From a virus (lineage: Duplodnaviria > Heunggongvirae > Uroviricota > Caudoviricetes): a stretch of 19,466 nt of DNA. Position numbers and translations under genes: made by a program. Under the pieces are notes generated by a model. That model had not been told where the DNA came from and ran no database searches. It saw only the letters and a program-made list of their open reading frames with translations. Location of the stretch: IMG/VR virus record IMGVR_UViG_2531839662_000028, positions 1 to 19,466 of that record, one strand, 5' to 3'. Of this stretch, positions 1 through 15,978 are shown in pieces; within the stretch, counting starts at the first letter, position 1; every line of letters begins with the position of its first letter.

Positions 1-510
1 TTATACGGATTTTTTTACATCTTGTGGATCCTGTGAAGGAGCTACAAGATCTTCCTGTTCATGAACGCCATAGATTGACAAAATCTCTTTGCGAGCTTCT
101 GAGGGTAATGTATGTAGCACCAAAGCTGTTTGTAGCGTTTGGCGATCAATGCCCAACATTGCCAATAGGGTATCAGCAGATATAGGGGGGCGTTCATGCA
201 TTAACCCGGAAAGCCCGTATTTAGCCATATTCAGCTCTATTTCCCGGACTTCATTTTCTCCTAATTTATTGATTAATATGGAGAACATCTTCAATGTATC
301 AGCATTCATTTCTTCGATAGACGTTCCCTGCATAGCTGGTATTACCGGGAGATACTCAACCCCAGGCCCACGACGCCCTTCTTGCGAACGCTTAGGCCAT
401 CCTTCTTTCTTCGCTCGTTTGTGCACGCCTTGTATTGTTCCTGGCATTCCGTCCAGTTCAGTAATTTGTTTGGGCGTCATCCACTGGTTTATCTCTCTTG
501 AACTTTTCAT
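1..510 (-). CDS. c: Mu-type immunity repressor (Repc-like), 169 aa
   Basis: Minus-strand ORF with start codon (CAT on +) at 508-510 and stop at 1-3. N-terminus MKS...GMPG..GVH.RA..GW.KR...G..EY matches the Mu repressor DNA-binding domain pattern and visibly parallels the N-terminus of the adjacent transposase. Divergent from ner/A/B as in Mu; AT-rich. Confidence 0.85.
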   Translation of the reverse strand: MKSSREINQWMTPKQITELDGMPGTIQGVHKRAKKEGWPKRSQEGRRGPGVEYLPVIPAMQGTSIEEMNADTLKMFSILINKLGENEVREIELNMAKYGLSGLMHERPPISADTLLAMLGIDRQTLQTALVLHTLPSEARKEILSIYGVHEQEDLVAPSQDPQDVKKSV

Positions 511-2928: not shown

Positions 2929-3867
2929 ATGAATATTTCCGATATTCGCGCAGGACTGCGCACGCTTGTAGAAAGTGAAAAAGCGACTTATGCACAAATT
3001 GCACGCGAGTCTGGCGTGGCCGCAGGAACGTTAAGCGCATTCGTGAATAACAAGTACAACGGCGACAATGAACGTGTTGCGCAGACGCTGGAACGCTGGC
3101 TGGAGAACTATCACCGTGCCGCAGAGCTGCCAGAACCACCACGTTTTGTGGAAACCAGAACAGCACGCCAAATCTGGACGAGTATGCGTTTTGCCAGCCT
3201 GACTGAAAGTATTTCTGTTATCTGCGGTAATCCAGGTGTGGGAAAAACTGAAGCGGCCCGCGAATTTCGTCGCACCAATAACAATGTCTGGATGATCACC
3301 ATTACCCCATCCTGTGCCAGTGTTCTGGAATGCCTGACTGAACTGGCTTATGAACTGGGAATGAATGACGCACCACGCCGTAAGGGGCCACTCTCCCGCG
3401 CTTTGAGACGCCGTCTTGAAGGTACGCAGGGGCTGGTCATTATCGACGAAGCTGATCATCTTGGCGCTGAGGTTCTGGAAGAACTCCGCCTGTTACAGGA
3501 GTCCGCCCGTATTGGCCTTGTTCTGATGGGGAATCACCGTGTTTATTCAAACATGACCGGTGGTAACAGAACGGTTGAATTTGCCCGCCTGTTTTCCCGT
3601 ATTGCCAAACGGACGGCAATCAATAAAACCAAAATTGATGATGTAAAAGCCATTGCGGATGCCTGGCAAATTACCGGCGAAAACGAGCGGGAATTATTAC
3701 AGCAGATTGCACAAAAGCCAGGTGCGCTTCGCATCCTGAACCACTCGCTGCGCCTTGCTGCCATGACCGCCCACGGTAAAGGTGAACGTGTTAATGAAGA
3801 TTATCTGCGTCAGGCTTTCCGTGAATTAGACCTCGACGTTGATATTTCAACCCTGCTGCGCACGTAA
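2929..3867 (+). CDS. B: Mu B-type transposition target-DNA activator (AAA+ ATPase), 312 aa
   Basis: 312 aa, immediately downstream of A. Walker A motif GNPGVGKT and a Walker B-like LVIIDEAD are read directly in the translation. Confidence 0.93.
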
Positions 3868-4737: not shown

Positions 4738-5262
4738 ATGGCTAAACCAGCAAAACGAATCAAGAGTGCCGCAGCAGCTTATGTTCCGCAATCCCGCGAT
4801 GCCGTGGTGTGTGATATTCGCCGGATTGGTGACCTGCAACGCGAAGCGGCACGACTTGAAACGGAAATGAATGACGCTATCGCTGAAATTACTGAGAAAT
4901 ACGCCTCACAGATTGCGCCCCTTAAAACCAGTATTGAAACCCTTTCAAAAGGCGTTCAGGGATGGTGTGAAGCGAACCGCGACGAACTGACGAACGGCGG
5001 CAAGGTGAAGACGGCGAACCTGGTAACCGGCGATGTGTCATGGCGTCAGCGCCCACCATCGGTAAGTATTCGCGGTGTGGATGCGGTGATGGAAACGCTG
5101 GAGCGTCTTGGCCTGCAACGCTTTATTCGCACGAAACAGGAAATCAACAAGGAAGCGATTTTACTGGAACCGAAAGCAGTCGCAGGTGTCGCCGGAATTA
5201 CAGTTAAATCAGGCATTGAAGATTTTTCTATTATTCCGTTTGAACAGGAAGCCGGTATTTAA
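4738..5262 (+). CDS. gam: Gam-like host-nuclease inhibitor / DNA-end binding protein, 174 aa
   Basis: 174 aa, the Mu Gam length. Translation MAKPAKRIKSAAAAYVPQ...WCEANRDELTNGGKVKTANLVTGDVSWR matches my recollection of Mu Gam. AGGAG at 4721-4725. Confidence 0.88.
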   Translation: MAKPAKRIKSAAAAYVPQSRDAVVCDIRRIGDLQREAARLETEMNDAIAEITEKYASQIAPLKTSIETLSKGVQGWCEANRDELTNGGKVKTANLVTGDVSWRQRPPSVSIRGVDAVMETLERLGLQRFIRTKQEINKEAILLEPKAVAGVAGITVKSGIEDFSIIPFEQEAGI

Positions 5263-6433: not shown

Positions 6434-6746
6434 TGCTGATTTAATGGCTGCAACCTTAATTTCCAGTGGCATGTCAGAACAAAAGGTAAATGATTTCCTG
6501 GATAATGTCGTATACCAGCACTATGAGCAGGCCAGAGAAAATTTAATTTCAGAAAAGCGCACGATGATTGCTGAATCATTAAGCCCTGCATGGATTATCG
6601 AAGAGTTGCGGGGAATCATTGCCAGTCAGGATAAAGTGGCGGCAGTTGCCGCCCTTGATGTGCTACAGCGAATGAGTAAAGAGCTATTCAACACTGAATT
6701 AATTTTAAAATCCGGGGGACATAATGAATCGCACATCCCTGATTAA
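6411..6746 (+). CDS. Hypothetical acidic small protein, 111 aa
   Basis: ORF overlapping both neighbours by ~23 nt; AT-rich; about 20 acidic versus 10 basic residues. Confidence 0.55.
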   Translation: MKIQMITDADLMAATLISSGMSEQKVNDFLDNVVYQHYEQARENLISEKRTMIAESLSPAWIIEELRGIIASQDKVAAVAALDVLQRMSKELFNTELILKSGGHNESHIPD

Positions 6747-7275
6747 ATTAATTCATGTTGCACGTCGGGAGTTGCAACTTGACGATGACACTTACCGCGC
6801 TTTTCTGGTGCAGTGCACGGGCAAAACCAGTTGTCGCGAGCTGTCCGTTGCACAACTGGAACAAGTGCTCGATGCCATGAAAGAGCGCGGTTTTAAGAAA
6901 CAGAAAAAATATCCCCGCCGTCGTTTTAAGGGGCATGTCACACCACGCGAGAAGATTTACAAAATCTGGCAGCAGATGTTTCTTGACGGTTTCGTCTCCG
7001 ATATCAGCGACGCTGCGCTGGACAAATACGTTGAGCGCCTGACAGCCAGACGTAATGGCGGACAGGGTGTTTCCACGCTGGCATGGTGTCACGGGGAATC
7101 GTTGCAGGTTGTGCTTGAAACGCTCAAACAGTGGCATATGCGCTGCATCCGTGAAGCCTTTGCCCGACATGGTGTGCCTTTACCTGTGAGCGAAACCGGG
7201 CGGGAGCTGCGCGGCTATGATGCACTGACCAGTGCGTATGCCCGCGCACGAAACAGCGGGAGAATTGCTGTATGA
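6724..7275 (+). CDS. gemA: GemA-like gene expression modulator (DUF1018-type), 183 aa
   Basis: 183 aa, directly upstream of and overlapping mor (ATGA overlap) as in Mu. Translation MNRTSLIKLIHVARRELQLDDDTYRAF... fits the GemA family pattern as I recall it. Confidence 0.8.
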   Translation: MNRTSLIKLIHVARRELQLDDDTYRAFLVQCTGKTSCRELSVAQLEQVLDAMKERGFKKQKKYPRRRFKGHVTPREKIYKIWQQMFLDGFVSDISDAALDKYVERLTARRNGGQGVSTLAWCHGESLQVVLETLKQWHMRCIREAFARHGVPLPVSETGRELRGYDALTSAYARARNSGRIAV

Positions 7276-7682
7276 AACAGATGAAAGAGCAGGATTTATT
7301 CGAAGACTTCCGGGACGACAGCGTTCTGGAATATCTTCACGATTATCAGGAAAAATATGTTTACCCGGCGCTACTTTCAGAACTGAATGCTCTGTTGCGA
7401 CAGGAACTGATAAGGCTTGGGGTTAACCCGGTCCATTCCCTTGAGTTGGTAGTGGCGATTTGTAATCATATCGGTGGGATTCAGGTATATGTTCCTAAAG
7501 GGAAAATACTGGAAAATCTTATCAGAGACATGCGCATCTGGCGTGATTTTGATGGGAAAAACGTAGCGGAACTGGTGCAGCGTTACAAAGTGACATACAA
7601 AACGGTATATCAAGCTATCAAAAGAATGCGAAGGCTGGAGCGTGGAAAATATCAAATGCAACTGTTTAAGGATGAGTCATGA
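7272..7682 (+). CDS. mor: Mor/C-family transcription activator (Mor by synteny), 136 aa
   Basis: Acidic N-terminus and C-terminal HTH (...NVAELVQRYKVTYKTVYQAIKRMRR...) typical of Mor/C activators. Position immediately after gemA. Confidence 0.85.
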   Translation: MKQMKEQDLFEDFRDDSVLEYLHDYQEKYVYPALLSELNALLRQELIRLGVNPVHSLELVVAICNHIGGIQVYVPKGKILENLIRDMRIWRDFDGKNVAELVQRYKVTYKTVYQAIKRMRRLERGKYQMQLFKDES

Positions 7683-8158
7683 AATACTTTCCTCTTATAC
7701 TTTTACTGAGCGTATTTTGCGCTAATGCGGCAAAGTTGCCAGCTGAAGATGTCATCAAAAAACGTCTGACAGAAAAAGATCTCATTGCACTAAATAGCTG
7801 GAAGCCTCTTAAGGGAGGCGATTCTATTAAGAACGGTGGAACTGAAACTGCTCACAGCAAATTCGGGGTATTTACGATCAATAATAAAGTCGTCAGCTCA
7901 AGGACGACGGTAAAGGATTTTGAAAACAATCCTTCAGGTGTGTTGTCTTCCTTTGTAGCATGCTCGCGGGTTGCAGAGTCAGCAATTGGTGAACTAACAG
8001 AGAAGCAGCAGAAACGAATTATTGACATGGTAGTTTCAGCTACAAAAGTTGAAGGGTATGGGTTAACTGACGTGATACAGGGTTTTCTCATGCAAACCAA
8101 ATTTCTCAAGATGGGTAACGATATGGTAATAGATTGCTCCATCAAAGGAGATGAGTAG
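7679..8158 (+). CDS. Secreted protein of unknown function, 159 aa (moron-like cargo)
   Basis: N-terminal signal peptide MKYFPLILLLSVFCANAA. Visibly lower GC than flanking genes. ATGA overlap with the mor stop; followed by a strong intrinsic terminator. Confidence 0.7.
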   Translation: MKYFPLILLLSVFCANAAKLPAEDVIKKRLTEKDLIALNSWKPLKGGDSIKNGGTETAHSKFGVFTINNKVVSSRTTVKDFENNPSGVLSSFVACSRVAESAIGELTEKQQKRIIDMVVSATKVEGYGLTDVIQGFLMQTKFLKMGNDMVIDCSIKGDE

Positions 8159-8177
8159 TTATCTTCCCTTAATTCAA

Positions 8178-8203
8178 TGAAGCCGGTAAATCCGGCTTTT
8201 TTT
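8178..8203 (+). terminator. Intrinsic terminator-like hairpin + T7 tract (TGAAGCCGG-TAAAT-CCGGCTTTTTTT), copy 1 of a repeated element
   Basis: 7-bp GC-rich stem, 5-nt loop, seven Ts, 20 nt after the stop of the secreted-protein gene and 56 nt before the endolysin start. Identical 26-mer recurs at 15904-15929. Confidence 0.65.
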
Positions 8204-8258
8204 ATGCCTCCGGCACCATGAAGCAGACCACGTTTAACTCTGCTTCACAGGTGTTTTT

Positions 8259-8846
8259 ATGGAAAATCAAAAATTCTCCCCGGCCTTTGAACATGCGCTG
8301 AATTTTATTCTGCGTCCTGATATCGAAGGCGTTTATGTCAATGACCCCACTGACCGTGGCGGTGAAACCAAATACGGCATTTCTGACCGCCGCGACGGTG
8401 TGATTGACGGCAAAACCGATGTCAGCGGTGACGGCAAACCGGATACCCGCATCAAAGATTTAACCCGCGAACAGGTCGCGCAGATTTACTGGCGCGATTA
8501 CTGGCTGCCTGCCGGATGTGACCAGTGGCCTGATGGCGTGGCGATGTTTGTTTTCGATGCAGCGGTTCAGCATGGCGTTAAAAAAGCCATCAAAATTTTG
8601 CAGGAAGCCACTGATATCAATGCCGATGGCATCATCGGCCCGCGCACCCGCAGGGCCGTGAACCTGGCTGACCAGAACTGGTTGCTGACCCGCTGTATTG
8701 TCCGTCGTTCCCGCTTTTATGCCGAAATCATCAAATCAAAACCCGCCCAGGGCAAATACCTGAACGGCTGGTTTAACCGCATGGAAAAACTGACCGACGC
8801 CTGTCTGGAAATCATCGACAACGCGCCGTCCACCACGCGGGGGTGA
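8259..8846 (+). CDS. Endolysin, GH108-type muramidase with C-terminal peptidoglycan-binding domain, 195 aa
   Basis: N-terminal motif EGVYVNDPTDRGGETKYGI matches the GH108 signature; C-terminal DGIIGPRT resembles the peptidoglycan-binding module. No signal peptide or TM segment. Confidence 0.85.
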   Translation: MENQKFSPAFEHALNFILRPDIEGVYVNDPTDRGGETKYGISDRRDGVIDGKTDVSGDGKPDTRIKDLTREQVAQIYWRDYWLPAGCDQWPDGVAMFVFDAAVQHGVKKAIKILQEATDINADGIIGPRTRRAVNLADQNWLLTRCIVRRSRFYAEIIKSKPAQGKYLNGWFNRMEKLTDACLEIIDNAPSTTRG

Positions 8847-8847
8847 T

Positions 8848-9099
8848 ATGGGCAAAGGCTGGGATGCCTCACTGAAAGCCGGGCGGCGTGACCGCCTGCG
8901 TCAGGAGGTTCTGCACCGCATGGCCGGAGGTCCGTCCCCGAAACCGCTGGACTATACCGGCCATGACGGCACACACGCCAGCTACTACATGCGTGGCTGG
9001 AACTCCGTGGATACACGGGACATTTTCTGGCAGTGCCAGAAGTACAGGGAAAAATTCAATGTGGAAAAAGGTAATGAACAAAATTTTAAAACTGTGTGA
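8848..9099 (+). CDS. Hypothetical basic protein in lysis cassette, 83 aa
   Basis: ATG 2 nt after the endolysin stop; good enterobacterial codon usage (CTG, GCC, AAA) through most of the ORF; no TM segment. Confidence 0.45.
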   Translation: MGKGWDASLKAGRRDRLRQEVLHRMAGGPSPKPLDYTGHDGTHASYYMRGWNSVDTRDIFWQCQKYREKFNVEKGNEQNFKTV

Positions 9100-9484
9100 C
9101 TGGCTGCTTTGTTCCCGACTGATGAGAACCCCATGGCCGCTGGCCGGACTGACACTCTGCATGTTCATCATCAGCATGTTATGTGGCTGGCGATCGTTCG
9201 TGTTGATGTTGTTGTCCTTTGCCGGGGTGGTGTTGTTTTCATACAGCGCAAGCCTCGGGAATGTGCCATTTCGCCTGCTGCCTGAGGTCCGTTACCGGGC
9301 TTTTGGTCGCCACATCATCGTGTGGTCATGGGTGGTCTGGGCGCTGGGATATTTCTGCTGCGTCTTCAGCACGCTGATGATGGTGTCACCGGTGCATCCG
9401 GTGTTCTGGCTGTGTGGTGGCTGTTGCGGCGGTCTGCTCTGTCTTCAGCGTTATCTGTATGGAGGTTTCCCGTGGATCCGTTAA
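9059..9484 (+). CDS. Multi-pass membrane protein (about four TM segments), Cys/Trp-rich; candidate holin, 142 aa
   Basis: Only + frame covering 9100-9470 with host-like codon usage. Hydrophobic segments PWPLAGLTLCMFIISMLCGW, FVLMLLSFAGVVLFSY, IIVWSWVVWALGYFCCVF, VFWLCGGCCGGLLCL. Start at internal ATG 9059 (AGGGA upstream) chosen because the upstream part of the track ORF overlaps the better-supported frame-1 gene. Confidence 0.55.
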   Translation: MWKKVMNKILKLCDWLLCSRLMRTPWPLAGLTLCMFIISMLCGWRSFVLMLLSFAGVVLFSYSASLGNVPFRLLPEVRYRAFGRHIIVWSWVVWALGYFCCVFSTLMMVSPVHPVFWLCGGCCGGLLCLQRYLYGGFPWIR

Positions 9485-10080
9485 CCCTTTCAGGCATCGC
9501 CTCTGTTCTGCTGAAAGCCGGGCCGGGGCTGATTCGTTCCGTCGGGCGCTGGTTTGGTGGCAGTACATCTGCCGCCGCTGACTCGGTGGCCGGTATGGTG
9601 GAAAGCGTCCGGGAAAGCCTTCCCGTTGCTGAACAGCAACGCATTCTGGAACAAAAACTGGTGATGCTGTCACCGGAGCAACTGGTGCAACTGGAAACCC
9701 TGAAAATTCAGCTGCAACAGCTGGAGGTGGAACGGCAGAAGCTGGTGCTGGCTGACCAGCAGGCCGCACACCACGAACAGCAGGAAACCATCCGCAATGG
9801 TGACAACGCCACGGACAGCTATGTGCGCCAGACACGCCCGCTGCTGGCCCGCCTTTCCTGTTACAGCAGTCTGGCCTATGTGCTGTTGCTCTCCTGCGGC
9901 CAGATTGCCGGAGCCATTGCCGGTGCCAGAGGTATCACGCTGCATATGCCATCACCGGACTGGGATATCACGCTGATGTTGCTTACCCCGGCGCTGGGCT
10001 ATCTCGGTGTAAGAACCCTTGACGGCTTTGCCCGTTACAGCAAATCAAGCCGTCACAAAATGTCTGCGGGGCCGAAATGA
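9472..10080 (+). CDS. Membrane-associated coiled-coil protein, lysis-associated candidate (spanin- or holin-like), 202 aa
   Basis: GTG start at 9472 preceded by GGAGG (9462-9466). Hydrophobic N-terminus, Q/E/L-rich coiled-coil middle, C-terminal hydrophobic segments. Confidence 0.5.
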   Translation: MDPLTLSGIASVLLKAGPGLIRSVGRWFGGSTSAAADSVAGMVESVRESLPVAEQQRILEQKLVMLSPEQLVQLETLKIQLQQLEVERQKLVLADQQAAHHEQQETIRNGDNATDSYVRQTRPLLARLSCYSSLAYVLLLSCGQIAGAIAGARGITLHMPSPDWDITLMLLTPALGYLGVRTLDGFARYSKSSRHKMSAGPK

Positions 10081-10304
10081 CCGACGAAATCGATCGCATC
10101 AGTGAAGTGGTTCTGAACGAGCGTCAGAGCGTCGTTAAAGCCTGGCAGACACGGACAAAAGAAACGCCCCACAGCCGGGGCTTCTGCAATGACTGCGGGA
10201 ACGTTATTCCGGCACAGCGCCTTGCGGCGCTGCCGGATGTGGTGACCTGTATTGACTGTCAGCAGATGCGGGAACGCAGGAGGAAAACGTGTCCTGGGAA
10301 ATGA
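10077..10304 (+). CDS. TraR/DksA-family C4 zinc-finger protein, 75 aa
   Basis: CxxC-x16-CxxC arrangement (CNDCGN...CIDCQ) in a ~75-aa protein, characteristic of TraR/DksA-like zinc fingers. ATGA overlap with the preceding gene. Confidence 0.75.
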   Translation: MTDEIDRISEVVLNERQSVVKAWQTRTKETPHSRGFCNDCGNVIPAQRLAALPDVVTCIDCQQMRERRRKTCPGK

Positions 10305-10594
10305 TCAGAGCCAACTGGCCCATTCTGTGGGCATTGCTGATGACAGGAATAAACCTGCTTCAGTTGATTCTGGCAAAGACCTACGTCAAGCGCGAAGAGT
10401 TTGATTTGCTGCGTTCCCGCGTGTCGGTGATGGAAAGCCAGGTACATCAGCTACCTGATCGTGATGAGTTCCACCGCCTGCAACTGGATATCAGCAACCT
10501 GCGGGGAGAAATCAAAGAGCTGGGGCCATCCATCCGCCAGGTATCCCGCATCAGCGATTTGTTATTAGAGAACGAGTTAAAGGAAAAAAATTAA
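10289..10594 (+). CDS. Small membrane-anchored coiled-coil protein (Mu gp25-like by position), 101 aa
   Basis: GTG start at 10289 preceded by AGGAGG (10278-10283). One N-terminal TM segment (WPILWALLMTGINLLQLIL) followed by a coiled coil. Confidence 0.6.
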   Translation: MSWEMIRANWPILWALLMTGINLLQLILAKTYVKREEFDLLRSRVSVMESQVHQLPDRDEFHRLQLDISNLRGEIKELGPSIRQVSRISDLLLENELKEKN

Positions 10595-10887
10595 TGGCGA
10601 TGAAAGAGATCCTCACTGAAGACCGTCGTCTGGTGTTGCTGCGTTCCCTGCTGGATTGTGGCGACAGTGCGAATGAATCCGTGTTGCAGACCTGCCTTCA
10701 GGCCTACGGTCATAAGGTATCCCGTGATGTGGTGCGCACCCAGCTTGCATGGCTGCGCGAGCAGGGGCTGGTTCGTCTGTCTGATGTGGGCGGCTGTTAC
10801 GTGGCTGAAATCACCGGCAGCGGCGAGGATGTGGCAAACGGCCTGTCCAGCGTTCCGGGCGTTAAAAAACCCCGTGCGAGGGACTGA
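10594..10887 (+). CDS. Hypothetical protein, 97 aa
   Basis: ORF with ATG overlapping the preceding TAA; host-like codon usage; part of the co-directional late block before terminase. Confidence 0.6.
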   Translation: MAMKEILTEDRRLVLLRSLLDCGDSANESVLQTCLQAYGHKVSRDVVRTQLAWLREQGLVRLSDVGGCYVAEITGSGEDVANGLSSVPGVKKPRARD

Positions 10888-10889
10888 GC

Positions 10890-11189
10890 ATGGCCCGAAA
10901 ACTGAAGCCGTTAAGTCGCGGAGAACGGGCCGTCGTGCGGCAACTGGCGTACTGCCTTGTGCTGGCAGATATTGAGCAAAACGCCATTGTCCGTGCATAC
11001 GAACAACAGACCGGAAAGCCCTGGAACCCGGATGCACCGGATACCCCCATGAAACGTGCCCTGCGTTCATCACCGGCATGTGCGCGGCTGTGGAAGCTGC
11101 TGGGTAAGGATATCCGCTCCGTTCGCGAAGAAATATACGCCGGTCTGAAAACACCGGGAACTGAAGACGGGGGCCGTCGTGAACCGTAA
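10890..11189 (+). CDS. Hypothetical protein, 99 aa
   Basis: ORF with GAGGGA RBS 8 nt upstream of the ATG; host-like codon usage. Confidence 0.6.
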   Translation: MARKLKPLSRGERAVVRQLAYCLVLADIEQNAIVRAYEQQTGKPWNPDAPDTPMKRALRSSPACARLWKLLGKDIRSVREEIYAGLKTPGTEDGGRREP

Positions 11190-11326
11190 AAAGAATCCGA
11201 TAAGTAAAGCGTCCCGTGATGAACTCCGCCGTCTGGCGCACAACCTGACATGGCGGGAAATCCAGAGCGGCGCACTGAAATCTGCATACGAAAGTTTACA
11301 GCGTAGTGAGCAACAGGAGGGCACAC

Positions 11327-11908
11327 ATGGAAAATGAACAACGCCCCACCCGTGGCCGTCTTTCCAAAGTGGATTTACTCCCGGACAGCATCCGGGAGCA
11401 GTTGCATCAGATGCTGCGGGAAAAGCGGCACACGCAGGAAGAAATCCGCGAAGCCATCAACGCCCTGATTGACGAACACAACCTGCCGGAAGAGATGCAG
11501 TTAAGCCGGACGGGCTTAAACCGCTATGCCATCCGCATGGAAAAAGTCGGGGCAAAAATCCGTGCCTCCCGCGAAATGGCCGAAGTCTGGGCGGCAAAGC
11601 TGGGTTCCGCGCCGACGTCAGACGTCGGCAAACTGCTGATGGAGTTTGTAAAAACGCTGGCTTTTGAAACGTCCATGTCGATGGCAGAAGACGACAAGCC
11701 CGTTGCACCGAAGGCGCTGGGGCAACTGGCGCTGGTTGCCCAGCGTCTGGAAGCGGCAGCCATGACCAGCCATAAACGCGAGAAAGCGATCCGTGATGCG
11801 TTTGCGCAGGAGATGGCAGAGAAAACCGAAGAACTGGTCAGAACGGGCGGTCTGTCAGGCGGTGCGGCTGACACCATCAAACGAGACATTCTGGGGATTA
11901 GCGTATGA
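11327..11908 (+). CDS. Terminase small subunit-like protein (Mu gp27 position), 193 aa
   Basis: Immediately upstream of and overlapping the large terminase. AGGAGG at 11315-11320 supports the ATG at 11327 rather than the track's upstream start at 11306 (GTG). Confidence 0.65.
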   Translation: MENEQRPTRGRLSKVDLLPDSIREQLHQMLREKRHTQEEIREAINALIDEHNLPEEMQLSRTGLNRYAIRMEKVGAKIRASREMAEVWAAKLGSAPTSDVGKLLMEFVKTLAFETSMSMAEDDKPVAPKALGQLALVAQRLEAAAMTSHKREKAIRDAFAQEMAEKTEELVRTGGLSGGAADTIKRDILGISV

Positions 11909-13440
11909 CACAAATGGATACGTTCAGTGAATATGATGTTCTGCTGCCGTATCAGAAACGCTGGGTGGCGGATGATGCCGACCTGAAAATTGCCGAGAAA
12001 TCCCGCCGTACCGGTTTAACCTGGGCGGAAGCGGCGGATGCGGCACTGACGGCATCACTGAAGAAGGAAGACGGCGGGCGCGATCACTTTTATATCGGTT
12101 CGAATAAGGAGATGGCCCGCGAATTTATCGACGCCGTGGCGATGTGGGCGAAAGCGTTTAATGCGGCAGCGGAAGAAATCTGCGAGGAAGTGATCACCGA
12201 CGAAGACAAGGACATTCTGACGTTCGTCGTGTACTTCGCCAGCGGTTTTAAGGTCAAGGCATTGTCCAGCAACCCGAGCAACATTCGCGGGATGCAGGGG
12301 AATGTCACCATCGACGAGGCCGCGTTCCATGAAAAACTGGACGAGCTGCTGAAGGCTGTGCTGCCGCTGAAAACATGGGGCGGCAAAATTCGCCTTATTT
12401 CCACCCATGACGGCGTGGACAACCTGTTTAACCAGCTGATTCAGGAAAGCCGCGCGGGCAAAAAAGATTACAGCATTCACACCATCACGCTGGATGACGC
12501 CTGCAATGACGGGCTGTACCGGCGTATCTGTCAGGTGCGCGGCATGGTGTGGTCACCGGAAGCCGAAGCGGAATGGAAAGAAGGTCTGCTGCGAAATACC
12601 GCCACCCGCGAAGACGCACTGGAAGAATATTACTGCGTCCCGAAAAACGGCGGCGGCACGTATATCCCCCGCTCACTGCGTGAACGTGCGGCCCGTGGCA
12701 CCGGGAAAGTGTTGCGCTTTACCGGCACACCGGAATTTAACGCACTGACGGAAAGCCAGCGCCGGGCAGATATCCGGGAATGGCTGGAAACAGTGGTGCG
12801 CCCTGAACTGGAAAAACTCCCGAAGAACCTGCGCCACTGTCTGGGGGAAGACTTTGCGCGTTCGGGTGACCTGACCGTACTGGCCCCGGTGACGGTGAAC
12901 GATGACACCACCCGCGAGGTGCCGTTTCTGGTTGAGCTTGGCAATGTGCCGTTTAAACAGCAGGAGCAGGTGCTGTTCTGGCTTTGCGATCGTCTGCCCC
13001 GCCGTGACGGCATCAAAATGGATGCGCGGGGGAATGGTCAGTATCTGGCAGAACAGGCGGCGGAGCGGTACGGCGACGAAGTGGAACAGGTGATGCTGTC
13101 CGTGGCGTTCTACCGCGAAAACATGCCCCGTTTCCGTGCGGCGTTTGAAGATGATGAGCTGATCCTTCCGAAGCATGAAGACGTGATCAATGACCTCGGG
13201 GCCATTCAGTTACTGCGTGGCGTTCCCGGCATTGATGATTCACGAACCCGTGGCAGCGACGGTCACAAACGTCACGGCGACGCCGCTGTGGCCATTTTCC
13301 TGGGCTTCCTGGCCAGCAAGGATGACTGCCACCGTTACGAACTGCACCGCCTGAACCGCCCGGCGAAACCGGAAGAACGCAACGCGCGCCGCCAGATGAA
13401 GCTGACGCGCGGCCTGAAAAATGAGGGAGGTTTACTGTGA
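11905..13440 (+). CDS. Terminase large subunit (Mu gp28-like), 511 aa
   Basis: 511-aa protein between small terminase and portal; overall resemblance to Mu-like large terminases; ATGA overlap with the upstream gene. Confidence 0.88.
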   Translation: MTQMDTFSEYDVLLPYQKRWVADDADLKIAEKSRRTGLTWAEAADAALTASLKKEDGGRDHFYIGSNKEMAREFIDAVAMWAKAFNAAAEEICEEVITDEDKDILTFVVYFASGFKVKALSSNPSNIRGMQGNVTIDEAAFHEKLDELLKAVLPLKTWGGKIRLISTHDGVDNLFNQLIQESRAGKKDYSIHTITLDDACNDGLYRRICQVRGMVWSPEAEAEWKEGLLRNTATREDALEEYYCVPKNGGGTYIPRSLRERAARGTGKVLRFTGTPEFNALTESQRRADIREWLETVVRPELEKLPKNLRHCLGEDFARSGDLTVLAPVTVNDDTTREVPFLVELGNVPFKQQEQVLFWLCDRLPRRDGIKMDARGNGQYLAEQAAERYGDEVEQVMLSVAFYRENMPRFRAAFEDDELILPKHEDVINDLGAIQLLRGVPGIDDSRTRGSDGHKRHGDAAVAIFLGFLASKDDCHRYELHRLNRPAKPEERNARRQMKLTRGLKNEGGLL

Positions 13441-15008
13441 ACCTGAAACAACTGGCCGGGGCCGTTCGCCGTCTGCTGAACCCGGCAACCGGTGAGGAAG
13501 ACACACTGAAAAAAGAGGCGCTCAACGAAGCACAGGCCCGTCCGCGTCATGCCGGTGTGCGTTCGGCCTCGCCGGGTATCAGCGTCGCCTCCGGGCTGAA
13601 CCCCGGCAGGCTGGCAGGCATTCTGCGCAATGCCGCCGACGGCATCACACGTGATTTTTTTATCCTTGCTGAAGAGATGGAAGAACGCGATTTGCATTAC
13701 GCCTCGGTGCTGCGCACCCGCAAGCTGACGGTGGCGGGTATCGAACCGGTGGTGGTGGCCGCCAGTGATGACGATGCTGACGTGCAACTGGCGGACGCCA
13801 TCCGTGCGCTGATGGAAGCCCCGCAAATCCCTGAGCTGATGTTTGATTTGCTCGACGGGCTGGGAAAAGGCGTGGCGGTCTGTGAAATCCTGTGGGACAC
13901 CCGCAACAACCACTGGATGCCCCGTGATTATGAATGGGTTGATCCCCGTTTTCTGAAAGCCGAAAAACCCACGCTGCACCAGTTCCGCCTGCTGACTGAC
14001 GATGAACCGGTGGATGGCGTACCGCTGACACCGGGAAAATTCATTGTTCACCAGCCGCGCCTGAAATCCGGTCTGCCGTTGCGTAACGGTCTGGCCCGTC
14101 TGGTGGCGGTGATGTACATGCTGAAATCCTTTACCGTGCGCGACTGGTGGGCATTCGCGGAAAAATTTGGCATTCCGGTCACGGTGGGGAAATACGGTCC
14201 CAACGCCACGGAGGAGCAAATCCGCGTACTGATTGATGCGATTGCCTCCATTGCCTCGGATGCCGGGTGTGCCATTCCGCAGTCCATGCAACTGGAAATG
14301 AAGGAAACCGCCAGCAGGAATAACGGCGGCGCACTGTTCCGTGAAATGGCGGAATGGTGTGATGCACAAATCAGTAAGGCTGTGCTGGGGCAGACCATGA
14401 CCACGGATAACGGCAGTTCGCGTTCACAGGCGGACGTGCACAATCAGGTGCGCATGGACATTGTGCGCTGGGACGCGCGGCAGCTGGCTAACACGCTGAA
14501 TGAATATCTGGTACGCCCCTACATTGAGGCCAACTACGGGCCACAGGCGCACTACCCCCGTGTTGTTCTGCGTATCAGTGAAGCGGAAGATTTGAAGGCG
14601 CTGACAGACGCTCTGGTGCCACTGATTGACCGGGGGATGCGGGTTCAGGAATCGGAGCTGCGGGACCGGTTCGGCCTGGCTGAACCGGACGACGGGGCTG
14701 ATGTTCTGCATCCGGTGTCTGCCGGAATGTCAGGTGATATGGCGATGAACCGCGAGCGCGTCGCCCTGAACCGTGAACACCCCGATGAACTGGCACAGAT
14801 GGTGGATGATGCCCTGCGTGACTGGCAGAAAACCGGCGAGGCGTTCACGAACCCGGTGCTGACACTGGCGCAGGAATGCGACAGTTTTGATGACTTTCTG
14901 AAACGTCTGCCTGAGCTTCAGGAAACGCTGAACGCGGACGACTTTGCCCTGCAACTGGCGGAGGTGTGCTTTAAGGCGCGTGTGCTGGGGGACACTGCTC
15001 ATGCGTGA
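13437..15008 (+). CDS. H: Portal protein (Mu gp29/H-like, DUF935-type), 523 aa
   Basis: 523-aa protein following terminase. GTG start at 13437 preceded by GAGGGAGG (13423-13430), overlapping the terminase stop. Confidence 0.85.
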   Translation: MNLKQLAGAVRRLLNPATGEEDTLKKEALNEAQARPRHAGVRSASPGISVASGLNPGRLAGILRNAADGITRDFFILAEEMEERDLHYASVLRTRKLTVAGIEPVVVAASDDDADVQLADAIRALMEAPQIPELMFDLLDGLGKGVAVCEILWDTRNNHWMPRDYEWVDPRFLKAEKPTLHQFRLLTDDEPVDGVPLTPGKFIVHQPRLKSGLPLRNGLARLVAVMYMLKSFTVRDWWAFAEKFGIPVTVGKYGPNATEEQIRVLIDAIASIASDAGCAIPQSMQLEMKETASRNNGGALFREMAEWCDAQISKAVLGQTMTTDNGSSRSQADVHNQVRMDIVRWDARQLANTLNEYLVRPYIEANYGPQAHYPRVVLRISEAEDLKALTDALVPLIDRGMRVQESELRDRFGLAEPDDGADVLHPVSAGMSGDMAMNRERVALNREHPDELAQMVDDALRDWQKTGEAFTNPVLTLAQECDSFDDFLKRLPELQETLNADDFALQLAEVCFKARVLGDTAHA

Positions 15009-15882: not shown

Positions 15883-15903
15883 GGGGTATTTCCCCGTTTT
15901 CAG

Positions 15904-15929
15904 TGAAGCCGGTAAATCCGGCTTTTTTT
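15904..15929 (+). terminator. Copy 2 of the repeated hairpin + T7 element, 50 nt upstream of the I start
   Basis: Identical 26-mer to 8178-8203; similarity continues on both sides (TTCA.TGAAGCC... and ...TTTTTTT.TGCCT.CCG.CA...TGA). Confidence 0.65.
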
Positions 15930-15978
15930 CTGCCTTCCGCATACTGACCGTCGGTAACCCCAAACGACGGAGACTGAC

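What the first reader, a model, noticed from the sequence alone, without database searches (positions are those of the whole stretch)
10077..10304. TraR/DksA-type zinc finger between lysis and packaging genes: possible RNA-polymerase-targeting late regulator
The CxxC-x16-CxxC protein of 75 aa fits the TraR/DksA family, whose members bind the RNA polymerase secondary channel. In a phage that appears to lack C, a polymerase-binding factor in the late region may help redirect host transcription. The spacing differs from the Ogr/Delta-type zinc-finger late activators of P2-like phages, so I do not call it Ogr.
Basis: partly seen in the sequence, partly recalled or inferred. Interest (0 to 1): 0.45.

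Follow-up and report, generated by a model that had tools for sequence, protein, structure and literature searches.

The report
TraR-family RNA-polymerase binder in Mu-like prophage
The 75-codon gene is a real, conserved member of the TraR family of small zinc proteins that plug into bacterial RNA polymerase. It sits in the lysis-and-packaging operon of a Mu-like E. coli prophage, and public annotation already gives it this family name, so it is an ordinary find with a few minor twists.

Summary
The ORF at 10077-10304 (+) is real and encodes 75 aa. Its zinc motif is CxxC-x17-CxxC, not x16, with cysteines at 37/40/58/61, the same positions as in F-plasmid TraR.

It passes Pfam PF01258 and the NCBIfam TraR-subfamily model TIGR02419. 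It matches PHROG 54 end to end. Its best PDB matches, by sequence and by fold, are TraR chains solved bound to RNA polymerase.

The functional residues D3, D6 and R48 and the C-terminal helix are present. A8 is Ile, as in the tested P2 Orf82. The three F TraR residues that contact beta'Si3 (E46/R49/K50) are A/L/A here.

The window is the left end of a Mu-like prophage. In 80 of 80 related viral loci the gene lies between a holin-like gene and a DUF2730 (Mu gp25 "releasin" family) gene.

The operon follows an element that aligns with the Mu middle promoter Pm. Only one Mor/C-family gene is present, and it is a Mor orthologue. Direct Mor control therefore explains the missing C better than TraR does.

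Most likely function: ppGpp-independent shut-down of host rRNA and ribosomal-protein promoters during lytic growth. This was not tested here.

PGAP, FluMu HI1497 and KS10 gp7 already carry the same annotation. Interest is low.

The parts
10077..10304 (+). TraR-family gene (75 aa plus stop). The predicted architecture is an N-terminal helix at residues 4-26, a globular zinc domain, and a C-terminal helix at residues 59-71.
   Evidence: ORF; PF01258, TIGR02419 and PHROG 54; PDB TraR is the best sequence hit; AF2 mean pLDDT 83 and Foldseek top hits 6n57_M and 5w1s_M; dN/dS 0.14-0.37.
10083..10100 (+). Codons 3-8, D-E-I-D-R-I. This is the N-terminal tip motif, DxxDxA in the family and DxxDxI here.
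   Evidence: Among 106 short homologues D3 is found in 98, D6 in 101 and A8 in 91, with Ile in only 4. The motif is invariant in the E. coli sub-branch. The tested P2 Orf82 also has DxxDxI (PMC9239242).
10185..10259 (+). C4 zinc ribbon: C37, C40, C58 and C61, with R48 (10218-10220) and L49 between them.
   Evidence: The cysteines and R48 are invariant in 106 of 106 homologues, and the cysteines sit at the same positions as in F TraR.
8164..8215 (+). Pm-like element upstream of the endolysin gene. It contains the hairpin GAAGCCGGTAAATCCGGCTTT plus a T-run (8179-8199) and is followed by the -10-like hexamer CACCAT (8214-8219). It is the probable end of the early transcript and the Mor-dependent start of the operon that holds the TraR-like gene.
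   Evidence: Terminator-like scan. 52-nt repeat, 85% identical to the second copy. Gapless alignment with Mu Pm. Present about 1.85 kb upstream of the gene in 73 of 80 related loci.
15890..15941 (+). Second copy of the Pm-like element, upstream of the head protease gene. The hairpin is at 15905-15925 and the -10-like hexamer CATACT at 15940-15945. It is the probable 3' boundary of the lysis-packaging-portal transcription unit.
   Evidence: Only these two copies exist in the whole 35-kb prophage of ETEC1703.
7272..7682 (+). Mor orthologue, the only Mor/C-family activator. It is the presumed activator of the two Pm-like promoters (context).
   Evidence: PF08765 E 1.6e-29; 59% identity to Mu Mor and 31% to Mu C.
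9472..10080 (+). Upstream neighbour, whose stop overlaps the TraR start codon (ATGA). It belongs to PHROG 1544 and is a holin-like membrane protein (context). The start coordinate follows PGAP on the near-identical prophage.
   Evidence: The GTA_holin_3TM match is weak (E 0.0015, below cut-off). The gene abuts the TraR-like gene in 80 of 80 loci.
10289..10594 (+). Downstream neighbour, which overlaps the TraR gene by 16 nt. It is a DUF2730 protein of the Mu gp25 'releasin' family (context).
   Evidence: PF10805 E 1.7e-30; abuts the TraR-like gene in 80 of 80 loci; family function from PMC9239132.

Best explanation
The gene encodes a TraR-type transcription factor that binds RNA polymerase and does not bind DNA.

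Inferred mechanism, by homology with F TraR:
- The N-terminal helix enters the secondary channel of host RNA polymerase, placing D3 and D6 next to the active-site region.
- The zinc globule docks on the beta' rim helices through R48.
- The C-terminal helix contacts the beta lobe/Si1.
- Binding changes the polymerase conformation so that promoters with short-lived open complexes (rRNA and ribosomal-protein promoters) are inhibited without ppGpp.

Inferred expression: the gene lies in a Mor-dependent operon together with the endolysin, holin-like, DUF2730, terminase and portal genes. The protein should therefore accumulate from the middle/late phase of lytic growth. It would then curb host ribosome synthesis and free polymerase and resources for phage production, as lambda Orf73 does (3- to 4-fold gain in yield).

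Inferred differences from F TraR: Ile replaces Ala8, and the three Si3-contact residues are A46/L49/A50. I expect good binding, somewhat weaker inhibition than F TraR, and weak promoter activation.

Shown here: family membership, residue conservation, predicted fold, operon context. Inferred: binding, promoter effects, timing, benefit to the phage.
For: Family membership:
- PF01258 42.3 bits (cut-off 24.9), TIGR02419 62.3 bits (cut-off 59.7), PHROG 54 full length.
- Best PDB sequence hits are TraR 5w1s and 6n57, then DksA.
- AF2 model has mean pLDDT 83 with helices 4-26 and 59-71, against TraR_N 2-27 and TraR_C 58-73 in PMC6970531. Foldseek top hits are 6n57_M and 5w1s_M, probability 1.00, 68-71 aligned columns.
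- The protein aligns with F TraR without a gap, with cysteines at identical positions.

Residue conservation: D3, D6, C37, C40, I44, R48, P53, C58, C61, Q62 and E66 are each conserved in at least 96 of 106 short homologues, and all are present here.

Experimental precedent: TraR and all five homologues tested bound RNAP, inhibited rrnB P1 without ppGpp and complemented a dksA deletion. P2 Orf82, which shares DxxDxI, had an IC50 of 250 nM against 50 nM for TraR (PMC9239242; sequences, alignment).

Selection and context:
- dN/dS is 0.14-0.37.
- Operon context comes, and from the Mor orthology.
- Synteny holds in 80 of 80 loci.
Against: - No member of this Mu-like clade has been tested.
- Identity to the tested homologues is only 25-32%.
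- A8 of the DxxDxA motif is missing. Within the wider clade D3 is K or R in 16 of 56 distinct sequences, so the tip is not under the strict constraint seen in TraR and Orf73.
- All six tested proteins have RR at positions 48-49, whereas this clade has RL.
- The tested phage homologues sit in early or decision regions, not in a lysis/late operon (PMC9239242). The biological role could therefore differ.
- The Mor dependence of the upstream element rests only on sequence similarity to Mu Pm.
Confidence: 0.72

Rival explanations
1. The protein is a phage-directed late regulator. By binding RNA polymerase it co-activates the phage's own Mor-dependent late promoters and so fills the role of the missing C protein.
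For: - There is only one Mor/C-family gene in the prophage.
- F TraR raises transcription from F-plasmid promoters in vitro (PMC9239242, section 12).
- The KS10 authors speculated that gp7 coordinates the head-gene modules (PMC2628397).
Against: - The gene lies inside the late operon, so it cannot be what switches that operon on.
- Pm-like elements with the same spacing to a -10-like hexamer as in Mu Pm stand before both the lysis and the head operons, and the activator is a 59%-identical Mor orthologue.
- The residues of F TraR needed for full activation through beta'Si3 (E46, R49, K50; PMC6970531) are A, L and A here.
- TraR proteins do not bind DNA.
Confidence: 0.12
2. The protein works only as a complex with a phage partner, as TraR of phage VP882 does with QisA. 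The partner could be one of the two membrane proteins whose genes overlap it, which would link host shut-off to lysis timing.
For: - The holin-like gene upstream and the DUF2730 gene downstream abut the TraR-like gene in 80 of 80 loci, down to 45% identity, with overlapping stop and start codons.
- A TraR-partner complex exists in VP882 (bioRxiv 10.64898/2026.07.27.740977).
Against: - Tight gene order and codon overlap are usual in phage late operons and are not evidence of interaction.
- No QisA relative was sought or seen.
- TraR and five homologues act alone in vitro (PMC9239242).
Confidence: 0.08
3. The protein is a zinc-ribbon protein with a lysis or packaging role unrelated to RNA polymerase. 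It keeps the fold but not the function, as some intermediate-length DksA-like proteins do.
For: - Its slot inside the lysis cassette is conserved.
- In Mu itself the same slot holds gp24, a 64-aa CxxC-x17-CxxC protein that lacks D6, R48 and the C-terminal helix.
- The tip motif is imperfect across the clade.
Against: - The DksA-like proteins known to be inactive lack the DxxDxA motif and the C-terminal helix (PMC9239242, section 18). This protein keeps D3, D6, R48, Q62, E66 and the helix.
- These residues are invariant in the E. coli sub-branch while other positions vary.
Confidence: 0.06
4. The protein is an Ogr/Delta-type zinc-finger late activator of the P2 kind.
For: It is a small zinc-finger protein in a late region of a temperate myovirus.
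Against: There is no Ogr_Delta Pfam match at E <= 0.01, while PF01258 is well above its threshold. The cysteine spacing and positions are those of TraR. The fold matches are to TraR and DksA.
Confidence: 0.01

Closest known systems
TraR of the E. coli F plasmid (PDB 5W1S, 6N57)
   Same: - Similar length (75 aa against 73), and the two align without a gap.
- Cysteines at 37/40/58/61.
- D3, E4, D6, G41, N42, I44, P45, R48, P53, Q62, E66, R67, R69 and K70 are identical.
- Same three-part architecture.
- Best sequence and fold match in the PDB.
   Different: - Overall identity is 29%.
- A8 is Ile.
- The Si3-interface residues E46/R49/K50 are A/L/A.
- It is encoded in a prophage lysis-packaging operon, not a conjugation operon.
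Phage P2 Orf82 (tested TraR homologue)
   Same: It shares the DxxDxI variant of the tip motif and has the highest identity among the tested homologues (32%). Orf82 bound RNAP as well as TraR, inhibited rrnB P1 with an IC50 of 250 nM, and complemented a dksA deletion when induced (PMC9239242).
   Different: Orf82 has RR at positions 48-49 and is expressed from the early promoter Pe together with replication genes.
Lambda Orf73
   Same: It is a phage-encoded TraR homologue. Its D3 and D6 are required, and it slows host growth and raises phage yield 3- to 4-fold (PMC9239242). This is the functional model adopted here.
   Different: Identity is 30%. Orf73 lies in the early exo-xis region transcribed from pL, has a full DxxDxA motif, and has RR at positions 48-49.
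DksA/TraR zinc-finger genes at the same slot in other transposable phages: Haemophilus FluMu HI1497, Burkholderia KS10 gp7, Vibrio phage 1.028.O gp23, Klebsiella phage Kp4866-3
   Same: The position is the same: after the endolysin and before the gp25-like, winged-helix, gp27 and terminase genes. Identity is 38-47% for the Vibrio and Klebsiella proteins.
   Different: None of them has been tested. KS10 gp7 and HI1497 were not aligned here. The Klebsiella branch has K or R at position 3 and A at position 8.
E. coli DksA
   Same: It has the same zinc ribbon, with R125-L126 matching R48-L49 here, and the same acidic tip and C-terminal helix.
   Different: DksA is 151 aa, has a two-helix coiled coil, and needs ppGpp. 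The DksA equivalog models score far below their cut-offs (29.6 bits against 289).

Membership tests
TraR subfamily of the DksA/TraR family (TIGR02419; criteria of PMC9239242 and PMC6970531) | Scores above the curated HMM thresholds | tested here: met
   PF01258 42.3 bits against 24.9. TIGR02419 62.3 bits against 59.7, covering residues 3-66 of the protein and positions 1-64 of the 64-position model.
TraR subfamily of the DksA/TraR family | About 70-80 aa, with a single N-terminal helix, a globular zinc domain and a C-terminal helix (no DksA coiled-coil hairpin) | tested here: met
   The protein is 75 aa. The AF2 model has helices at 4-26 and 59-71. Foldseek aligns 71 columns to the 72-residue TraR chain 6n57_M.
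TraR subfamily of the DksA/TraR family | C4 zinc-binding motif, CxxC-x17-CxxC | tested here: met
   C37, C40, C58 and C61 with a 17-residue spacer. These are the positions found in F TraR and are invariant in 106 homologues.
TraR subfamily of the DksA/TraR family | The two aspartates of the DxxDxA tip motif (D3 and D6), required for function | tested here: met
   The N-terminus is MTDEIDRI. D3 occurs in 98 of 106 homologues and D6 in 101 of 106. Both are invariant in the E. coli sub-branch.
TraR subfamily of the DksA/TraR family | Alanine at position 8 of the DxxDxA motif | tested here: not met
   Position 8 is Ile, while 91 of 106 homologues have Ala. P2 Orf82 has the same variant and is active with a 5-fold higher IC50 (PMC9239242). 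This is therefore a variant of the motif, not grounds for exclusion.
TraR subfamily of the DksA/TraR family | R48, the contact with the beta' rim helices | tested here: met
   R48 is present and is invariant in 106 of 106 homologues.
TraR subfamily of the DksA/TraR family | Residues of the beta'Si3 interface (E46, R49, K50 in F TraR), needed for full activation | tested here: not met
   The residues here are A46, L49 and A50. Position 49 is Leu in 52 of 56 clade sequences and Arg in all six tested proteins. In F TraR, alanine substitutions at these positions lower activation at least 2-fold and barely affect inhibition (PMC6970531).
TraR subfamily of the DksA/TraR family | Binds the RNAP secondary channel, inhibits rrnB P1 without ppGpp, and complements a dksA deletion | not testable with these tools
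   This needs biochemistry and genetics. It has been shown for TraR and the five homologues tested, but for none of this clade (PMC9239242).
DksA proper | About 150 aa with an N-terminal coiled coil, scoring above the DksA equivalog thresholds | tested here: not met
   The protein is 75 aa. NF008045 scores 29.6 bits against 289, and TIGR02420 scores 28.7 against 115.5.
Ogr/Delta late activators of P2-like phages | Match to the Ogr_Delta zinc-finger family | tested here: not met
   A Pfam scan at E <= 0.01 returned only zf-dskA_traR and a sub-threshold DZR match.

The most novel reading that the evidence does not exclude
TraR proteins of the Mu-like clade may be a functionally distinct branch. 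They are made late from a Mor-dependent lysis operon, they are biased toward inhibition (RL instead of RR, and no Si3 triad), and they may act together with the flanking holin-like or DUF2730 membrane proteins to couple host transcription shut-off to lysis timing. On this reading, Mu gp24 is a decayed remnant of the same gene.
Probability: 0.1. Interest if true: 0.5.

Novelty: new member of a known kind. Interest (0 to 1): 0.2.

Why it matters
TraR-type proteins let plasmids and phages impose a stringent-response-like reprogramming on the host without ppGpp. The members tested so far come from early or decision regions of lambda, P2, VHML and VP882.

This gene shows that a whole lineage of transposable Mu-like phages (Escherichia, Klebsiella and Vibrio examined here; Haemophilus and Burkholderia by published annotation) keeps one in a fixed slot of the lysis-packaging operon. 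In the sequences examined here it carries a DksA-like RL pair and an imperfect tip motif.

If tested, the protein would show whether late-expressed TraR proteins serve the same resource-diverting role, and which contacts are dispensable. The practical consequence for annotation is small, because the family name is already assigned by PGAP.

Tried and rejected
- **Megablast against the phage collection.** Searching 9000-12000 found nothing. The element is known only as a prophage, in 46 of 5426 complete E. coli genomes.
- **The search for related loci with the broad alignment A1.** A narrower alignment, A3, worked, but it samples only the Mu-like clade, so the 80/80 synteny figure applies to that clade only.
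- **Word-indexed homologue search.** It returned only close E. coli relatives. Diversity came from the exhaustive representative search.
- **Is the 159-aa ORF after mor (7679-8158) a hidden C?** BLASTP against Mu C gave no alignment and Pfam gave no match.
- **More copies of the Pm-like element, for example before the tail or mom genes.** Only two good copies exist in the whole prophage. How the tail and mom genes are transcribed stays open.
- **X. bovienii Gp34, the tested homologue that lacks D3.** I suspected it might belong to this clade, but it is P2-like and only 26% identical.
- **Ogr/Delta.** Rejected.
- **Mu gp24 as a TraR relative.** BLASTP found nothing. hhalign probability was only 40-43% over the zinc ribbon. 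Foldseek put TraR first but at E 0.43. This is suggestive, not established.
Full report
**The observation**

The ORF at 10077-10304 on the + strand runs from ATG to TGA and encodes 75 aa: MTDEIDRISEVVLNERQSVVKAWQTRTKETPHSRGFCNDCGNVIPAQRLAALPDVVTCIDCQQMRERRRKTCPGK.

- It has two CxxC pairs, at C37/C40 and C58/C61.
- Both the spacing and the four cysteine positions are identical to those of F-plasmid TraR.
- The start codon overlaps the stop of the upstream ORF (ATGA).
- The downstream ORF starts 16 nt before the stop codon of this gene. The gene is therefore packed inside an operon.

**Is it a real gene, and which family does it belong to?**

HMM searches:
- Pfam zf-dskA_traR (PF01258): E 7e-11, 42.3 bits against a gathering score of 24.9. 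No Ogr_Delta match appeared.
- NCBIfam TraR-subfamily model TIGR02419: 62.3 bits against 59.7, covering the whole 64-position model. The DksA and plasmid-TraR equivalog models score far below their cut-offs.
- PHROG 54, 'DksA-like zinc-finger protein': matched end to end, E 2e-20.

Comparison with solved structures:
- The best PDB sequence hits are TraR chains from the RNAP-TraR complexes 5W1S and 6N57, then DksA and YbiI.
- An AlphaFold2 model built on 61 homologues has mean pLDDT 83, with helices at 4-26 and 59-71 and a small globular part between them.
- This mirrors TraR_N 2-27, TraR_G 28-57 and TraR_C 58-73 described in PMC6970531.
- The best Foldseek hits are 6n57_M and 5w1s_M/N, at probability 1.00 with 68-71 aligned columns. 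DksA and its relatives follow.

Selection: against E. coli variants of the gene, dN/dS is 0.14-0.37.

**Functional residues**

The Gourse laboratory defines the family by three conserved regions (PMC9239242; PMC6970531):
- an N-terminal DxxDxA motif at the tip that reaches the active-site region;
- the C4 globule, with R48 contacting the beta' rim helices and E46/R49/K50 contacting beta'Si3;
- a C-terminal helix contacting beta lobe/Si1.

I ran an exhaustive HMMER search of 1.84 billion representatives, which gave 451 hits at E <= 0.001. I then aligned the short homologues among the best 150 hits with the window protein, F TraR, lambda Orf73 and the Kp4866-3 homologue, 106 sequences in all. 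Conservation in that alignment:

| Residue(s) | Sequences with it (of 106) |
|---|---|
| D3 | 98 |
| D6 | 101 |
| A8 | 91 |
| C37, C40, C58, C61 | 106 each |
| I44 | 104 |
| R48 | 106 |
| P53 | 96 |
| Q62 | 98 |
| E66 | 100 |

- The window protein has every one of these except A8, which is Ile.
- The E. coli variants that are 76-97% identical all keep D3, D6, I8, the four cysteines, R48, Q62 and E66. Their differences lie at other positions.
- I translated the gene blocks of the six tested proteins from Table S4 of PMC9239242 and aligned them. Identity to the window protein is 25-32%.
- P2 Orf82 has the same DxxDxI variant. It bound RNAP as well as TraR, inhibited rrnB P1 with an IC50 of 250 nM against about 50 nM for TraR, and complemented a dksA deletion when induced.
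- All six tested proteins have RR at positions 48-49. The window protein has RL, as DksA does.
- The Si3 triad is A46/L49/A50 here. In F TraR, alanine substitutions at these three positions barely change inhibition but cut activation at least 2-fold (PMC6970531).

**Genomic setting**

The window is the left 19.5 kb of a Mu-like transposable prophage:

| Coordinates | Gene or product |
|---|---|
| 1-510 (-) | repressor |
| 691-927 | ner-like |
| 902-2890 | transposase A |
| 2929-3867 | B |
| 4738-5262 | gam |
| 6724-7275 | gemA |
| 7272-7682 | mor |
| 7679-8158 | unknown, 159 aa |
| 8259-8846 | GH108 endolysin |
| 8848-10080 | three small or membrane ORFs |
| 10077-10304 | TraR-like gene |
| 10289-10594 | DUF2730 |
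| 10594-10887 | winged-helix protein |
| 11306-11908 | gp27 |
| 11905-13440 | large terminase |
| 13437-15008 | portal |
| downstream of the portal | head genes |

- No sequenced phage in the phage collection is close at the DNA level.
- 46 of 5426 complete E. coli genomes carry the region 9000-12000 at 90-99% identity. PGAP already labels the gene 'TraR/DksA C4-type zinc finger protein' or 'TraR/DksA family transcriptional regulator'.
- DUF2730 is the family of Mu gp25, the 'releasin' needed to free the SAR endolysin (PMC9239132). The upstream neighbour is a holin-like membrane protein with only a sub-threshold GTA_holin_3TM match. The gene therefore sits inside the lysis cassette, not merely between modules.

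**Conservation of the slot**

The same order (Mor, one ORF, endolysin, small ORFs, TraR-like, DUF2730, winged-helix, gp27, terminase) is seen in:
- Vibrio phage 1.028.O;
- Klebsiella phage Kp4866-3.

The order from the endolysin to the terminase is also annotated in:
- Haemophilus FluMu, where HI1497 is the TraR-like gene;
- Burkholderia phage KS10, where gp7 is the TraR-like gene.

I scanned IMG/VR with an alignment of the clade and obtained 80 loci whose TraR-like gene is 45-100% identical.
- In 80 of 80 loci the PHROG-1544 gene abuts the TraR-like gene upstream and the DUF2730 gene abuts it downstream.
- In 79 of 80 the winged-helix, gp27 and terminase genes follow. The one exception is cut by a contig end.
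- This sample covers the Mu-like clade only.
- Among the 56 distinct sequences, D6 is kept in 55, R48 in 56 and the cysteines in 56. D3 is K or R in 16. Position 8 is Ala in 42 and Ile in 13. Position 49 is Leu in 52.

**When is it expressed, and does the missing C matter?**

- A 52-nt sequence occurs twice, at 8164-8215 before the endolysin gene and at 15890-15941 before the head protease gene, at 85% identity.
- Each copy holds the hairpin GAAGCCGGTAAATCCGGCTTT followed by a T-run.
- These are the only two copies in the entire 35-kb prophage of strain ETEC1703.
- Both copies, and the one before the Kp4866-3 endolysin, align without gaps through the conserved core with the region just downstream of mor in phage Mu, which is the middle promoter Pm.
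- In Mu, Mor binds a 16-bp dyad element at -51 to -36, centred at -43.5, which replaces a -35 hexamer (PMC4390567, PMC4287176).
- By my placement of that element in the Mu sequence (an inference from the -10 hexamer), the window copies match it at 13 and 14 of 16 positions. They keep the same distance to a -10-like hexamer: CACCAT at 8214-8219 and CATACT at 15940-15945.
- The window's activator is 59% identical to Mu Mor and 31% identical to Mu C. It is the only Mor/C-family gene in the prophage. The 159-aa ORF after it has no similarity to C.
- 73 of the 80 related loci carry the hairpin about 1.85 kb upstream of the TraR-like gene. The other seven include the loci with too little upstream sequence.

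The simplest reading is a two-step cascade in which Mor directly drives the lysis-packaging operon and the head operon. This explains the absence of C without invoking the TraR-like protein. It also places the TraR-like gene in a middle/late transcript bounded by the two elements. That timing differs from the tested phage homologues, which lie in early or lysis-lysogeny regions (PMC9239242, section 17). It is an inference from sequence only.

**Mechanism proposed**

By homology, the protein binds the secondary channel of host RNAP. Without ppGpp it inhibits promoters that form short-lived open complexes, namely rRNA and ribosomal-protein promoters. This diverts polymerase and resources to phage production, as shown for lambda Orf73 (3- to 4-fold higher yield; PMC9239242).

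From I8 and the A/L/A triad I predict normal binding, somewhat weaker inhibition than F TraR, and poor activation.

Rival readings are possible but less supported:
- co-activation of the phage's own late promoters;
- obligatory action with a partner, as in the VP882 TraR-QisA complex (bioRxiv 10.64898/2026.07.27.740977);
- a role unrelated to RNAP.

The Ogr/Delta reading is refuted.

**Comparison with what is known, and novelty**

This is a member of the TraR subfamily. All defining sequence and fold features that could be tested are met except Ala8 and the Si3 triad, and neither of those is required for binding or inhibition in tested proteins.

- Public annotation already assigns the family to this protein and to its counterparts in FluMu, KS10 and the Vibrio phages.
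- No member of the Mu-like clade has been characterised.
- What is modestly new here is the strictly conserved slot inside the lysis cassette, the likely Mor-dependent late expression, and the DksA-like RL pair.

I rate it a new member of a known kind, with low interest.

**Side observation**

In Mu itself the slot directly upstream of gp25 is held by gp24, a 64-aa 'hypothetical protein' with sequence MNEDQNRAVALLLAELWQGDTRDIPRPAAYDPPVLCAGCGRELRPDVLRQQPMANYCHWCRGAE.

- It also has CxxC-x17-CxxC and a TraR-like N-terminus (MNEDQNRA, compared with MTDEIDRI here).
- It has N instead of D6, lacks R48 and lacks the C-terminal helix.
- Pfam and BLASTP find nothing.
- Profile-profile comparison gives only 40-43% probability over the zinc ribbon.
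- A medium-confidence model (pLDDT 76) has TraR as its top PDB hit at E 0.43. It also superposes on DksA-family zinc ribbons at 0.6-1.0 Å over 28 residues.

gp24 may be a decayed relative of the same gene. This is not established.

Noticed in passing
L007 3525-3719 (phage Mu NC_000929 11524-11718, gp24); the corresponding window slot is 10077-10304: Mu gp24 (64 aa, annotated hypothetical) occupies the slot directly upstream of gp25/DUF2730. It has CxxC-x17-CxxC and an N-terminus, MNEDQNRA, resembling the TraR tip. It lacks D6 (N instead), R48 and the C-terminal helix. Sequence and fold evidence for homology to TraR is weak: hhalign probability 40-43%, and TraR is the top Foldseek hit at E 0.43. 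It may be a degenerate TraR relative.
   Followed up: partly
window 8164-8215 and 15890-15941: A 52-nt repeat (85% identical) containing a perfect hairpin plus a T-run lies before the endolysin gene and before the head protease gene. It aligns without gaps through the conserved core with the Mu middle promoter Pm, including the region of the Mor-binding element, and with equal spacing to a -10-like hexamer. It probably serves as both a terminator and a Mor-dependent promoter. Only two copies exist in the whole prophage, so how the tail and mom genes are transcribed is unexplained.
   Followed up: partly
window 7272-8158: There is a single Mor/C-family gene, 59% identical to Mu Mor and 31% identical to Mu C, and no C gene. 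It is followed by an overlapping 159-aa ORF (PHROG 38744) with no Pfam match and no similarity to Mu C. This suggests a two-step rather than three-step transcription cascade.
   Followed up: partly
window 8848-10080: PHROG 2121 (a 284-position profile) matches both the 83-aa ORF at 8848-9099 and the protein at 9472-10080. Between them, in another frame, lies a membrane-protein ORF (about 9074-9484; PGAP calls a 136-aa protein). Klebsiella phage Kp4866-3 has the same three-gene layout. Vibrio phage 1.028.O has the two outer genes adjacent. The middle gene looks like an insertion or an embedded lysis gene.
   Followed up: no
window 8259-8846 and 10289-10594: The endolysin is a GH108 enzyme with a peptidoglycan-binding domain and no obvious N-terminal SAR or transmembrane segment, yet the phage keeps a DUF2730 protein of the Mu gp25 'releasin' family. 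PMC9239132 raises the same open question about DUF2730 proteins paired with cytoplasmic endolysins.
   Followed up: no
proteins P0014-P0019 (E. coli genomes): Several E. coli genomes carry frameshifted or truncated copies of the TraR-like gene (45-64 aa, diverging after about residue 28-46). This indicates decay of the gene in some prophage copies.
   Followed up: no
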